Positions 5,324-43,530 of a stretch of 64,000 nucleotides of DNA are shown here, piece after piece. Within the stretch, counting starts at the first letter, position 1. Each line of letters opens with the position of its first letter. The translations under genes were made by a program, and so were the position numbers. The notes below the pieces were generated by a model that saw nothing but the letters and a program-made list of their open reading frames with translations, did no database searches and had not been told where the DNA came from. The stretch comes from Prochlorococcus sp. AG-347-J14 (GTDB taxonomy: Bacteria > Cyanobacteriota > Cyanobacteriia > PCC-6307 > Cyanobiaceae). The stretch covers positions 3,075-67,074 of the forward strand of contig QCBU01000007.1 in NCBI GenBank assembly GCA_003281505.1, read 5' to 3'.

Positions 5324-6496
5324 TTAAAAATTTACTTCTTCAGGAATTATTCCTAGCTCAAACAACTTTTTATATAAACCCGTAAGAAATTTATTATCTT
5401 CCGGTAGTTTGTCCCACTTTTGGGAATTAATTTCATTAATTAATTTTTGACAATCCTCTATTGTGAATTTTATAGGTGCCGTAAAGTGAGCTGGAATTAA
5501 ATATTCCATATCTTCAAAAGACTTGATATTTTCTAACCAACTAAGTAAAACTTCTTTGGAACGCGGAAAAATTAATTTTTGTAAAACTGGTGCTATTTGA
5601 ATCTTAGGCGTATCTTCACCCATTATTTCAAAAAGAGAGGATTCCCAATCTTCTTCCCATAAAAAGGGATAAATACCGAAATGAGATCTCCAATTTCTAA
5701 GATCTTTTTTGAATGAATACTTAAATATTTTTTTTAATGGTGGAATATTTAATTTACTTGGTTTCAAAAAAGATGAAAATAAGACTAACCTTTTCCATCC
5801 TTTTTTTCTCTGTTCTATAGTGTCAATTAAAGGTTCATCTCCTCTCTCTCTAGAATGAAATAGAAGTGGAGTTGGATCAAAATTAAATATTTCAGGTGGT
5901 ATTGAGTTTATTCCAACTATTGCGTCTGTTACATGAAGAGTTTTCGTAGGATAATGGAAACAGCTTATCTCCTGATATCTTCCAAGTCCTAAATTCAGTG
6001 GGCCTAATGAAGACCATTTAAAGGAGTTTTTATAAGGAGTACCTTCCTCAAAGAGTATTCTTGATCTTTTTGATGGAATTCCTAAAAAATCTAGTGGTAG
6101 ATTTATGGGAAAACTCCATTGTCCAGGACAAAGCCAAATTTCTGCATCTTTAAAAATTCTTGAAAGAGCAGGCAGCCCAATTTTATGTTCTAGTCCAGAG
6201 GCACTCGGTAGAATTAATGTTTTTACGTTGCCGTGTATGGCAATTAGTTTTTCTAACTCATTTATTAATTCTTTTGTCGGAGGTAGTGGATTTATTAGCA
6301 TCAAACCATTATCAACCTTTATTACCGTCATTCTTATTGGAACCGCAACATAATAAAGTCCCTGTATTTGTTCCAAGGACCATATTTGATCAGGAATTAA
6401 TTCTTTGAAAATTGTTTTCTTTTTCCCATAAGGATATAAGGGGAATAATGGCCACCAATTCCACTTTTTATTTAAAGTTTCTTCCACCACTATCAT
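5324..6496 (-). CDS. DUF4336-family protein (metallo-beta-lactamase-like)
   Basis: WPLFPLYPYG start, PIRMTVIK, GLEHK, LIPAHF motifs. Confidence 0.7.
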   Translation of the reverse strand: MIVVEETLNKKWNWWPLFPLYPYGKKKTIFKELIPDQIWSLEQIQGLYYVAVPIRMTVIKVDNGLMLINPLPPTKELINELEKLIAIHGNVKTLILPSASGLEHKIGLPALSRIFKDAEIWLCPGQWSFPINLPLDFLGIPSKRSRILFEEGTPYKNSFKWSSLGPLNLGLGRYQEISCFHYPTKTLHVTDAIVGINSIPPEIFNFDPTPLLFHSRERGDEPLIDTIEQRKKGWKRLVLFSSFLKPSKLNIPPLKKIFKYSFKKDLRNWRSHFGIYPFLWEEDWESSLFEIMGEDTPKIQIAPVLQKLIFPRSKEVLLSWLENIKSFEDMEYLIPAHFTAPIKFTIEDCQKLINEINSQKWDKLPEDNKFLTGLYKKLFELGIIPEEVNF

Positions 6497-41772: not shown

Positions 41773-41850
41773 TTTAATTTATGGTTGCTTAGTTAAAACA
41801 TAACAACTATTGGAAGTTATCGTCAGAACTAAAAATAAATAATTAAATAA

Positions 41851-41936
41851 TGGGAGTGGGGGGACTTGAACCCCCACGAGCTAAATCGCTCGACGGATTT
41901 TAAGTCCGGCGCGTCTACCAATTCCGCCACACTCCC
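41851..41936 (-). tRNA. trnL-UAA: tRNA-Leu(UAA), intron-less, long variable arm, CCA not encoded
   Basis: Reverse complement GGGAGTGTGGCGGAATTGGTAGACGCGCCGGA-CTTAAAA-TCCGTCGAGCGATTTAGCTCGTGGGGGTTCAAGTCCCCCCACTCCCA folds as a class II cloverleaf. Confidence 0.97.
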
Positions 41937-42012
41937 AAAAAGAATTTGCGCTTTTTCATCGTAGCCGAAAGTATCACTTTTAACCAAAAAAATATCCCAA
42001 TATTTACACTTT
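41898..42012. repeat. Direct repeat copy 1 (tRNA 5' half from anticodon loop plus ~75 bp of upstream promoter)
   Basis: Colinear with 43392-43504 at offset 1494; first 21 bp identical (ttttaagtccggcgcgtctac), also ccgccacact, gaatttgcg and atcgtagccgaaag. Confidence 0.93.
41958..41963 (-). promoter_or_regulatory. Putative -10 element (TACGAT) of tRNA-Leu
   Basis: TAnnnT hexamer 21 nt upstream of the mature tRNA 5' end, inside a 14-bp block conserved in both repeat copies. Confidence 0.5.
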
Positions 42013-42058
42013 CCTTGAATAGATAGACTCGCAGGATTAATTATTACCTATTAATTTC

Positions 42059-42083
42059 CTAAAAAATTGTTGCAATTTTTTAG
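42059..42083. promoter_or_regulatory. Perfect 11-bp inverted repeat upstream of islet gene (possible operator or hairpin)
   Basis: CTAAAAAATTG-ttg-CAATTTTTTAG, 38 bp before the TTG start. Confidence 0.4.
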
Positions 42084-42121
42084 TCATCTAGCTAGCAATC
42101 AATTAATCAACATAAAAAAAA

Positions 42122-43243
42122 TTGAAAAAATTTATTGCATTATCTTTAATAGGTTCTAGCTTCTTGATCAGTAGCAATTCAGTCAAAGCCGACCTAATAA
42201 GAGTAGTTACTTTAGGAAGTAAAAACTATAAAGTTCAACGCGTTAATGAAACCACAAATGTAGCTACTGATTTAGTTGAATTTAATCAACCTAGTGGAGT
42301 AGCTTCTTCAGGATCTTTTCTAGATTCTTACAATAGAAAACTCTATATGGCTGGTGATAGCGATGGATATACTATTTATGATATTGACGCAAATACAATT
42401 ACAAAAGTGCCTTACGGATTAACTGGCCAGCTTAATAATTTTGTACCTTGGGAAGGTAAAAACGTTATCAAAAAAAATGAAGATGGAACTATTCAGATAG
42501 GTGGAGATGCTAATGATGTCGACATAACTTCAGAGGGTTTATCTGTTGATGGGGATCCCATTATAAGTAAGAAAGCAAATGGTGAGTTGCATATTGGTAA
42601 AAACTCTTGGATTACTAAAGAAGAAAATGGCAGGCAAAAAGTATATGCAAAAGATGCCGCAGGAAATCCAATACCTATAGACTATACAAATGGAACTAAA
42701 TTATTGATAAATGGAAGAGATATAGAACAATCAATAAATAATGTCGGAGCATTAAGTGCTGCTCTAACAGGATTACCAACAGTTCCTACTGACACTGCTC
42801 TTGCTTGTGGTTTAGGAGCAGGAACTCACGGGGGTGATTTTGCCTTTTCAGGAGGATGTGCTTCTAGAGTAAATGAAAAACTATCATTTAACTATGCCGC
42901 ATCTATGACTATGCCAGGTCAAGAATATGCCGGTGAATTTGAAGATAGTTTTTCTGCTAGAGCTGGATTTGTTTGGCAATTAGGTAAGGCAAAAAAGCCA
43001 ACTCAAATTAGCATGAATCAAAAAGAAGAAATAGATCTAAAATTATCTCAACTTGAAAATGATAATGAAAAATTAAAAAATGAGAACGAGAAAATAATAT
43101 CTAAAAATACTCATTTAGAAACTAGTAATAATGAGATAATTTCTCAAAATAAAAAACTTCTTGCACGATTAGAAAAATTAGAAAAAATTGCGTTTAAATT
43201 CCAGGGGGACAAATATAAGTTTTCAAAATCAATTTCAGAATAA
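42122..43243 (+). CDS. Exported protein with YadA-like anchor region and C-terminal coiled coil (trimeric autotransporter-like)
   Basis: Signal peptide MKKFIALSLIGSSFLISSNSVKA; beta-rich N-part; INNVGALSAALTGLP helix then amphipathic strands ending SARAGFVWQL; heptad tail LENDNEKLKNENE...LLARLEKLE. Confidence 0.7.
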   Translation: MKKFIALSLIGSSFLISSNSVKADLIRVVTLGSKNYKVQRVNETTNVATDLVEFNQPSGVASSGSFLDSYNRKLYMAGDSDGYTIYDIDANTITKVPYGLTGQLNNFVPWEGKNVIKKNEDGTIQIGGDANDVDITSEGLSVDGDPIISKKANGELHIGKNSWITKEENGRQKVYAKDAAGNPIPIDYTNGTKLLINGRDIEQSINNVGALSAALTGLPTVPTDTALACGLGAGTHGGDFAFSGGCASRVNEKLSFNYAASMTMPGQEYAGEFEDSFSARAGFVWQLGKAKKPTQISMNQKEEIDLKLSQLENDNEKLKNENEKIISKNTHLETSNNEIISQNKKLLARLEKLEKIAFKFQGDKYKFSKSISE

Positions 43244-43314
43244 TAGATTCTTTTATTTTGACATTTACTTCGCGCTAGATATAAGTTGGATATTTGTCCT
43301 TAATTGGACAGGTT

Positions 43315-43352
43315 AAAAATTAAGTAAGGGACTAGGTTCTAGCCTAATCCCT
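43315..43352 (-). terminator. Putative intrinsic terminator (minus strand)
   Basis: Minus-strand RNA AGGGAUUAGG-CUAGAA-CCUAGUCCCU (10-bp stem with one U.G pair; C.A mismatch on the plus strand) followed by UACUUAAUUUUU. Confidence 0.55.
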
Positions 43353-43391
43353 ATATATGCTGTACGCTAGTGTATTAATTATTTTGTTAGT

Positions 43392-43430
43392 TTTTAAGTC
43401 CGGCGCGTCTACAATTTCCGCCACACTACA
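43392..43430 (-). pseudogene. Degenerate tRNA-Leu 5'-half fragment
   Basis: 35/39 match to 41898-41936; changes in the acceptor stem (TGTAGTG vs GGGAGTG) and D-loop. Confidence 0.88.
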
Positions 43431-43504
43431 ATAAGGAATTTGCGATATCCAATCGTAGCCGAAAGCATGCCATTTAACTTAAAAAATTGGAATATTTCCA
43501 CTTT
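43392..43504. repeat. Direct repeat copy 2 (displaced tRNA 5' half plus promoter)
   Basis: See copy 1 at 41898-42012. Confidence 0.93.
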
Positions 43505-43530
43505 TAATTGTCAGATTAAATCTAATTTTT

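What the first reader, a model, noticed from the sequence alone, without database searches (positions are those of the whole stretch)
42122..43243. Atypical trimeric-autotransporter-like protein: YadA anchor followed by a long C-terminal coiled coil
Seen: Sec signal peptide and a beta-rich passenger with short repeats (IKKNEDGTIQIG / ISKKANGELHIG / ITKEENGRQKVY). Then an Ala-rich helix (INNVGALSAALTGLP) and about four amphipathic strands ending SARAGFVWQL. About 85 extra residues follow, forming a heptad coiled coil (LSQLENDNEKLKNENE...LLARLEKLE). Two Cys lie in neighbouring strands (ALACGLG, SGGCASR). Known: canonical type Vc anchors end at the last strand with a terminal aromatic residue read by BamA. 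YadA-domain proteins are also annotated in cyanomyoviruses, and C-terminal coiled coils promote trimerisation of phage fibre proteins. Inference: a non-canonical type Vc-like adhesin with a periplasmic coiled-coil tail, or a captured phage protein altering the cell surface (adhesion, phage or grazer interaction). Either is unexpected cargo for a streamlined planktonic cell.
Basis: partly seen in the sequence, partly recalled or inferred. Interest (0 to 1): 0.7.

Follow-up and report, generated by a model that had tools for sequence, protein, structure and literature searches.

The report
Propeller-headed adhesin in phage-site cassette
This Prochlorococcus gene encodes a trimeric-autotransporter-type protein with an already-described coiled-coil tail and an interchangeable two-blade head predicted to close into a six-bladed propeller, and it lies in a small integrase-less cassette bounded by the attachment arms of a T7-like cyanophage, which likely delivered it.

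Summary
In detail: a 373-aa ORF with signal peptide, beta-rich passenger, YadA anchor (above Pfam cut-off; the model matches Hia, YadA and AtaA anchors) and an 86-aa heptad tail. The feature called atypical, a coiled coil after the barrel, is already published for Veillonella, Fusobacteria and Synechococcus autotransporters. A phage origin of the protein is not supported.

Two unflagged features are more interesting. (1) Residues 24-110 model as exactly two beta-propeller blades. 298 of 340 family heads share this unit, once each, so the trimer likely closes a six-bladed propeller, a head type I did not find described for autotransporters. No trimer model could be run. Heads are swapped as modules (median identity 22% against 94% for the anchor), yet each allele is under purifying selection. 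(2) The gene is the only cargo of a 1.5-kb cassette at tRNA-Leu(TAA), bounded by attP arms of P-SSP7-type podoviruses. All 20 occupied slots examined carry that arm, no integrase, and varied cargo, mostly envelope-type.

Verdict: new variant of a known kind; ligand and mobility untested.

The parts
41850..41937 (-). tRNA-Leu(TAA), intact; the known attB target of T7-like cyanopodoviruses
   Evidence: ARAGORN; Rfam; PMC8776855 passages
41898..42012 (.). Left copy of the duplication: 41-bp att core starting at the anticodon loop, plus about 75 nt upstream of the tRNA
   Evidence: core is 100% identical over 41 nt to the phage attP core
42026..42037 (+). Degenerate left arm-type motif (3 of 12 mismatches to the phage motif), 128 nt from the core start; 124 nt in phages
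   Evidence: within 2 mismatches in 10 of 20 occupied slots and 0 of 24 empty sites; role as integrase-binding site inferred
42122..42190 (+). Sec-type signal peptide, residues 1-23
   Evidence: sequence inspection; family consensus
42191..42451 (+). Interchangeable head, residues 24-110: two Kelch-like beta-propeller blades (3+4 strands modelled, possible eighth strand at about 104-109)
42452..42721 (+). Beta-hairpin repeat stalk and neck, residues 111-200; repeat number varies in the family
   Evidence: no clear structural match
42722..42982 (+). TAA membrane anchor, residues 201-287: pore helix plus four strands, with C229 (42806-42808) and C246 (42857-42859)
42983..43243 (+). C-terminal coiled-coil tail, residues 288-373 plus stop; predicted periplasmic
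   Evidence: topology inferred from 10.64898/2026.01.22.700529
43272..43391 (.). Right arm, homologous to the attP arm between RNA polymerase and integrase of P-SSP7-type podoviruses; two repeat motifs at 43273 and 43365
   Evidence: 83% identity over window 43272-43442 to P-SSP7 5850-6018; 26 of 26 IMG/VR matches are phage attP regions; homology starts about 120 nt before the core
43392..43506 (.). Right, decayed copy of the att core, tRNA 5' half and upstream region
   Evidence: 82% over 96 nt; 80% over 115 nt

Best explanation
The gene encodes a short trimeric-autotransporter-type protein that is likely displayed on the Prochlorococcus outer membrane, where three two-blade heads are predicted to close into one six-bladed beta-propeller that likely binds a specific surface ligand, and it sits in an integrase-less cassette that was likely inserted at tRNA-Leu by a T7-like cyanophage integrase. 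Shown: the anchor family and monomer fold, the heptad tail, two blades per chain, head swapping, purifying selection on this head allele, the attP-homologous arm, and the absence of phage genes. Inferred: Sec export, then BamA insertion of a 12-stranded barrel. The periplasmic coiled coil would stabilise the trimer in place of BAM lipoproteins, as proposed for Veillonella. A C229-C246 disulfide would staple the first hairpin. The heads would close on the three-fold axis above a short beta-hairpin stalk and present three copies of each binding site, most likely for a glycan on other cells, particles or vesicles. Recombination in the conserved stalk and anchor would swap heads, giving a population-level repertoire. 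The main reservoir is the array between the parA-like gene and argJ; this copy arrived through the tRNA-Leu cassette route. Component odds: TAA 0.92, six-bladed closure 0.65, glycan-type ligand 0.4, phage-integrase origin of the cassette 0.75.
For: Anchor: above the Pfam cut-off. The top five hits in both structure searches are TAA anchors (AtaA 9vnj, Hia 2gr8/3emo/2gr7, YadA 2lme); Z 8.4-10.1, next row 5.5; rmsd 1.7-1.9 over 76-81 residues for the best two. Classical YadA heads sit on the same anchor in P0057 (E 1.6e-18), P0341 and P0373. An Omp85/BamA gene is present. Head: pLDDT block means 74-88 over residues 21-100. The listed Foldseek PDB rows are beta-propeller proteins. VIA gives Z 8.2 to 3hrp (79 aligned, rmsd 3.0) and Z 6.8 to the 93-residue designed SAKe2BE chain (72 aligned, rmsd 2.4). 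An independent Atlas model of homologue P0039 matches Kelch-type propellers at TM 0.61-0.65. 298 of 340 heads fit one profile, one copy each. Both faces of the blade strands are hydrophobic in the family profile, so both need a neighbour. Coevolution recovers five hairpin ladders and blade 1-2 packing. Swapping: 92 sequences, median head identity 22% against anchor 94%, 40 head types. P0058 is head 82%/anchor 63%, P0009 is 26%/87%, and G153 has another head in the same slot. Head dN/dS is 0.04-0.06 against G011 and G077. Cassette: site empty in 24 of 29 top pyrC matches. All 20 occupied slots examined have the arm plus the half-tRNA repeat, with cargo from none to 3 kb and no match to phage integrase, RNA polymerase or neighbouring ORFs. 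P-SSP7 integration at tRNA-Leu has been shown experimentally (PMC8776855).
Against: Propeller Z-scores of 6-8 are in the range the tool calls common for simple arrangements. The eighth strand is unresolved (pLDDT under 50 at 101-112). Coevolution gave no clean ladder for it (0.3 against 1.7-2.8 for true hairpins), and the permutation null passed nearly every strand, so it does not discriminate. Synthetic two-blade constructs can form tetramers instead of trimers (PMC6805158). No lectin is among the listed structural matches and no ligand motif is conserved, so glycan binding rests on analogy. Foldseek E-values for the anchor are only 3e-3 to 1e-2, and a sequence-profile search of the PDB found no TAA. 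Some distant members match PHROG families, including 'tail protein' and 'adhesin', over the neck-anchor region (7, 4, 3 and 2 of 28). Between core and left motif the cassette resembles host tRNA-upstream DNA more than the phage arm, which simple integration does not explain. In this genome the left motif and right core are decayed, so the copy is probably no longer mobile. The family is patchy (24 of 68 near-complete genus genomes).
Confidence: 0.6

Rival explanations
1. It is a TAA as described, but the two-sheet head does not close into a propeller. It forms another intertwined trimer (beta-prism-like), or three separate small domains.
For: Known TAA heads are beta-rolls or beta-prisms (PMC7247746). 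[quoted passage not shown] Z-scores are middling and the closing strand is unsupported.
Against: Kelch-like blade motifs and hits; hydrophobic residues on both outer faces; exactly one two-blade unit in 298 of 298 matching heads, as three-fold closure would require; a natural six-bladed propeller made by trimerisation exists (BambL, PMC9764287).
Confidence: 0.25
2. The protein is not an adhesin but a surface shield, decoy or receptor whose heads diversify under phage or grazer pressure.
For: At least 40 head types on a near-invariant anchor; tandem arrays of different heads in one genome; patchy presence; the slot's other cargo is mostly envelope-type.
Against: A given head allele is under strong purifying selection across divergent hosts (dN/dS 0.04-0.06), which fits specific binding better than escape by drift. 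No phage or grazer data were tested.
Confidence: 0.3
3. The protein is a captured phage fibre or tail protein, and the coiled coil is a fibre trimerisation chaperone.
For: It lies between phage attP arms. The beta-hairpin stalk is fibre-like by inspection. Distant members have weak PHROG tail and adhesin hits.
Against: Signal peptide and true TAA anchor fold. No homologue in phage records or IMG/VR; no PHROG hit for this protein at E<=0.001. All 50 genome loci are Prochlorococcus or Synechococcaceae chromosomal contigs, 33 of them at argJ/parA-like. GC is host-like (33% against 31%).
Confidence: 0.04
4. The cassette is not a mobile unit but a single old prophage scar that later became a passive landing spot, with cargo exchanged by host recombination between conserved flanks.
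For: Decayed motifs in many slots (10 of 20 have more than 2 mismatches or a shifted left motif); host-like left flank; a cargo-less version exists (L147).
Against: Right arms differ among genomes (72-90% identity to this one), as phage arms do. Tandem double cassettes occur (L110, L211). Homology ends sharply at the outermost motif in the 15 slots profiled.
Confidence: 0.35

Closest known systems
TAAs with a short periplasmic coiled-coil domain (Veillonella VtaA/VtaE/VtaF; Fusobacteriia; Synechococcus) - PMC7549365, 10.64898/2026.01.22.700529
   Same: YadA anchor followed by a coiled coil of under 100 aa with no SLH or OmpA domain; host lineage lacking proteobacterial BAM lipoproteins (as the preprint states).
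   Different: Very short passenger (about 180 aa), two-blade propeller-type head, invariant Cys pair in the barrel, cassette carriage. Prochlorococcus is not named in the preprint's main text; its supplements could not be read.
Classical type Vc adhesins YadA, Hia, AtaA (2lme, 2gr7/2gr8/3emo, 9vnj)
   Same: Helix plus four-strand anchor fold.
   Different: The barrel is not C-terminal and the last strand ends W-Q-L. There is no beta-roll head in this protein, though a few family members carry one.
Oligomeric six-bladed propellers: BambL lectin (PMC9764287); RSL (recalled); designed SAKe2BE (8pjq)
   Same: Short chain that would give six blades on trimerisation.
   Different: Soluble proteins with no anchor. 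No sequence or top-ranked structural match to the lectins was seen; the blades here are Kelch-like and dissimilar to each other.
attP/attB system of T7-like cyanopodovirus P-SSP7 (PMC1079782, PMC8776855)
   Same: Same tRNA-Leu core, homologous right arm, left motif at near-identical spacing.
   Different: No integrase, RNA polymerase or other tested phage gene; host-type cargo fills the space between the outer motifs.
Tycheposons (10.1101/2020.12.28.424599)
   Same: Cargo integrated at a tRNA and flanked by partial tRNA repeats in Prochlorococcus.
   Different: tRNA-Leu is not among the seven target tRNAs; no integrase or replication genes; only 0.4-3 kb.

Membership tests
Trimeric autotransporter (type Vc) | YadA_anchor domain above the curated cut-off | tested here: met
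   23.9 against 22.7 bits; 104 of 104 homologues at E<=0.05
Trimeric autotransporter (type Vc) | Pore helix plus four antiparallel strands with the TAA anchor fold | tested here: met
Trimeric autotransporter (type Vc) | N-terminal Sec signal peptide | tested here: met
   by sequence inspection and family consensus only; no predictor run
Trimeric autotransporter (type Vc) | Homotrimer forming a 12-stranded barrel | not tested
Trimeric autotransporter (type Vc) | Outer-membrane location and surface-exposed passenger | not testable with these tools
   Omp85/BamA gene present; localisation needs experiment
Classical proteobacterial TAA subtype | Barrel ends the chain with a terminal aromatic residue | tested here: not met
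   86 residues follow the last strand; not filed under this subtype
TAA with short periplasmic domain (Dorison 2026) | C-terminal extension of 10-100 aa that is mainly coiled coil, with no SLH or OmpA domain | tested here: met
   definition
TAA with short periplasmic domain (Dorison 2026) | Tail needed for protein stability | not testable with these tools
   shown only in Veillonella
Oligomeric six-bladed beta-propeller (BambL type) | Two propeller blades per chain | tested here: met
   seven of eight strands modelled
Oligomeric six-bladed beta-propeller (BambL type) | Closure into a ring by trimerisation | tested here: inconclusive
   indirect only: two-faced hydrophobicity and weak coevolution; no trimer model
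Oligomeric six-bladed beta-propeller (BambL type) | Carbohydrate-binding site or lectin homology | tested here: inconclusive
   no lectin among the listed rows, which does not exclude it
Phage structural (YadA-domain or fibre) protein | Homologue encoded in phage genomes | tested here: not met
   weak PHROG hits only for distant members
P-SSP7-type prophage | attP-derived core and arms at tRNA-Leu | tested here: met
P-SSP7-type prophage | Integrase and phage genes | tested here: not met
   0 of 20 slots match ORFs of the 16-kb P-SSP7 locus
Tycheposon | Own integrase and one of seven target tRNAs | tested here: not met

The most novel reading that the evidence does not exclude
Streamlined marine bacteria (Prochlorococcus, some Synechococcaceae, and at least one SAR11 record) carry a family of miniature autotransporters in which trimerisation itself builds a six-bladed propeller head, drawn from a repertoire of 40 or more interchangeable specificities. 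In Prochlorococcus these and other envelope genes are delivered by integrase-less cassettes that borrow the attP arms and integrase of lytic T7-like cyanophages, giving the transient phage integration seen in the lab a lasting genomic product.
Probability: 0.35. Interest if true: 0.82.

Novelty: new variant of a known kind. Interest (0 to 1): 0.6.

Why it matters
If the head closes as predicted, it adds a natural oligomeric propeller, which is rare, and a new head type to the autotransporter domain set. It would also give a small, expressible, allele-diverse surface protein for asking what free-living Prochlorococcus binds or hides from. The cassette makes an open question testable: T7-like cyanophages integrate at tRNA-Leu without forming lysogens, and the consequence for hosts has been speculative. 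Here an arm match was found in 18 of 201 genomes searched, with varied cargo in the 20 slots examined. The tail that prompted the flag matters little, since it is already in print.

Tried and rejected
First monomer model (close homologues only): anchor unfolded at pLDDT under 50. This was an alignment-depth effect, since a diverse alignment folded it. A PDB sequence-profile search found no TAA. NCBIfam gave only weak hits. Phage origin: no match; a homologue with a classical YadA head hit only a Rhodococcus phage Hep_Hag protein (2 records). A search for the head in proteins of 654-2000 aa found none of 74 candidates (weak evidence). Velcro-strand test: one search timed out. One search was spoiled by all-gap columns and a mis-mapped first strand (17 of 100 shuffles reached the observed value). 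One search was redone after seeing and its null does not discriminate. Expression: contigs of three RNA runs (two studies) cover the stalk-to-tail part, mostly as relatives, and none covers 42148-42531; contigs cannot show transcription, so no claim is made. The 43272-43391 element was first considered a small RNA (folding z -2.8; no Rfam family) and dropped once it matched phage attP. Promoter scan at chance level. Tycheposon reading rejected. The SAR11 adhesin of PMC12636525 is a different, 5-9.5-kb gene. The stalk has no clear structural match, which does not show a new fold. Four look-ups of earlier scan findings returned nothing.

Full report
Observation. The ORF is at 42122-43243 (+), 373 aa, between tRNA-Leu(TAA) and pyrC (gene name from the sequence, recalled) in a 31% GC genome whose homologues are named Prochlorococcus. 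The homologue search returned 1,143 proteins; I analysed the best 120 plus the query.

Anchor. Pfam YadA_anchor passes its cut-off, and 104 of 104 aligned members hit it at E<=0.05. A model from close homologues left the anchor unfolded. A model of residues 143-295 from 99 diverse sequences gave a helix plus four strands at pLDDT 88.5. Its five best matches in both structure searches are the AtaA, Hia and YadA anchors (Z 8.4-10.1, next 5.5), although Foldseek E-values were only 3e-3 to 1e-2 and a PDB sequence-profile search found no TAA. A few family members carry a classical YadA head on the same anchor. The genome has Omp85. C229 and C246 are in register across the first hairpin and invariant in the diverse alignment; a disulfide is inferred. 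The trimer could not be modelled.

Tail. 119 of 121 sequences have a tail over 40 aa (the other two end within 12 residues of the last strand), and 110 of 117 vary only in whole heptads. This architecture is published. Bechon 2020 (PMC7549365, passages) found it in all Veillonella TAAs. Dorison 2026 (10.64898/2026.01.22.700529; parts 1-4 of 6 of the text and term passages; supplements not seen) report it in 12% of 12,394 TAAs and 92.5% of Synechococcus TAAs, and show that deleting the coiled coil destabilises Veillonella adhesins. They propose it compensates for missing BAM lipoproteins. Prochlorococcus does not occur in their main text, but their supplements may list these proteins.

Head. 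Residues 21-100 model at pLDDT 74-88 as three plus four strands. Structural hits are beta-propellers, including Kelch domains and the 93-residue SAKe2BE chain, at Z 6-8, which the tool warns is middling. An independent Atlas model of homologue P0039 also matches Kelch-type propellers at TM 0.61-0.65. One iterated profile covers 298 of 340 distinct heads (the first 190 residues of sequences with the stalk motif), always once. The other 42 include YadA-type heads, other head types and fragments. Both faces of the blade strands are hydrophobic. Coevolution (effective depth about 190) recovers the five hairpins and blade 1-2 packing but gives only a weak hint that residues 104-109 complete the first blade. 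Since TAAs are obligate trimers, two blades per chain most simply give a six-bladed ring; this is inference. A TAA review lists beta-roll and beta-prism heads and never uses the word propeller (PMC7247746, passages and section 10). Natural oligomeric propellers are rare (PMC9218822, passages), BambL is a precedent (PMC9764287, passages), and synthetic two-blade units can also tetramerise (PMC6805158, passages). Searches (listings only) showed no paper on a propeller-headed TAA or on this Prochlorococcus family; subscription papers such as Bassler 2015 (recalled) were not searchable.

Variation. Among 92 of 121 sequences passing filters, median pairwise identity is 22% for heads and 94% for anchors, with 40 head types at 50% linkage. 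Mosaic pairs show module exchange (P0058 head 82%/anchor 63%; P0009 26%/87%), while this head allele has dN/dS 0.04-0.06 against two other genomes. Matches occur in 59 of 201 genus genomes (24 of 68 near-complete) and in 5 of 400 other phylum genomes at E<=1e-8. This genome has four more paralogues with different heads in tandem before argJ. Of 50 genome loci, 33 are at argJ/parA-like, 4 at tRNA-Leu and 13 elsewhere. Distant members with the same layout exist; one cluster has a member named Candidatus Pelagibacter, and most are unnamed.

Phage question. No protein homologue was found in phage records, IMG/VR or five attP-bearing phage records. Distant members weakly match four PHROG families over neck and anchor. 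The cyanomyophage YadA-domain protein described in 10.1101/261479 is 2,235 aa (passages); I did not compare it directly.

Cassette. The gene is flanked by a duplication beginning at the tRNA anticodon loop. The site is empty in 24 of the 29 best pyrC matches. A 120-nt element at 43272-43391 matches 18 of 201 genomes including this one (two of these matches are only 28 nt elsewhere). All 20 occupied slots I examined (6 already held, 14 fetched; chosen because they were occupied) share tRNA, duplication, cargo, element, half-tRNA, pyrC. Cargo is a TAA in 5, otherwise an outer-membrane barrel, a DUF3721 protein, other small and mostly exported-looking proteins, or nothing; one slot has two tandem units. 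The element is the attP arm of P-SSP7-type podoviruses: 83% identity to P-SSP7 between RNA polymerase and integrase. 26 of 26 IMG/VR and 21 of 30 metagenome pattern matches are phage attP regions, 5 are host slots and 4 are unclear, three of them with TAAs. Homology starts sharply about 120 nt before the core (15 slots profiled). A third motif lies 124 nt beyond the core in phages and at about 127 nt in cassettes (10 of 20 within two mismatches, 0 of 24 empty sites). No slot matches the phage integrase, RNA polymerase, neighbouring ORFs or the host integrase-like gene. The 42-bp attP was described in PMC1079782 and integration was shown in PMC8776855 (passages); the latter cites 'remnants of phage integration' in hosts, and the Hackl preprint (passages) cites links between attachment sites and recombination hotspots. 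I did not read those cited papers, so the scars may be partly known. Cargo-bearing cassettes bounded by the arm motifs were not described in the passages I saw. Unexplained: the left flank is host-like between core and motif, and this copy's motifs are decayed.

Verdict. A real, selected gene. It is a member of the TAAs with a short periplasmic coiled coil, with a likely new head type and an unusual vehicle. New variant of a known kind, interest 0.6.

Noticed in passing
window 41898-43506; loci L067, L068, L110, L142-L155: The tRNA-Leu(TAA)/pyrC site is a cargo slot bounded by P-SSP7-type attP arms. Other cargo includes an OMP beta-barrel (L039), DUF3721 proteins (L048, L149-L151, L154) and, by eye only, MORN-, TPR-, PspC- and rhomboid-like proteins; L147 is cargo-less and L110 and L211 hold two tandem units.
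   Followed up: yes
G000:C4:74126-80111: Tandem array of four paralogues with different heads between a parA-like gene and argJ; this is the family's main locus (33 of 50 genome loci).
   Followed up: partly
L152, L153, L198, L211 (left flank after the tRNA): A second type of left arm with only a 41-68 nt duplication and a different sequence before the motif; possibly from another phage group.
   Followed up: no
L103, L104, L107, L111, L112, L117: Family members lying within 3 kb of tRNA-Pro(TGG), one of the tycheposon target tRNAs.
   Followed up: no
P0057, P0122, P0341, P0373, L081, L111: Members in which a classical YadA-type repeat head replaces the two-blade head on the same stalk and anchor.
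   Followed up: partly
P0217, P0219, P0226, P0238, P0239, P0246, P0247 and the homologues: A non-Prochlorococcus-like branch with a 10-12 residue insertion between barrel strands 2 and 3; those scanned (P0217, P0232, P0247) miss Pfam YadA_anchor, so surveys based on that model would overlook them.
   Followed up: partly
window 43327-43352 and 43285-43375: Hairpins within the phage-derived arm (terminator-like on the minus strand, folding z -2.8); they may terminate transcription in phage and cassette.
   Followed up: partly
G000:C7:86248-86676: The only Phage_integrase match in the genome, on the window's contig; only remotely similar to the P-SSP7 integrase (24%, E 0.036).
   Followed up: partly
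G409 and G577 (L122, L123, L127): Much longer ORFs (1,759-3,232 aa) in other genera of the same family share the anchor and tail region.
   Followed up: no
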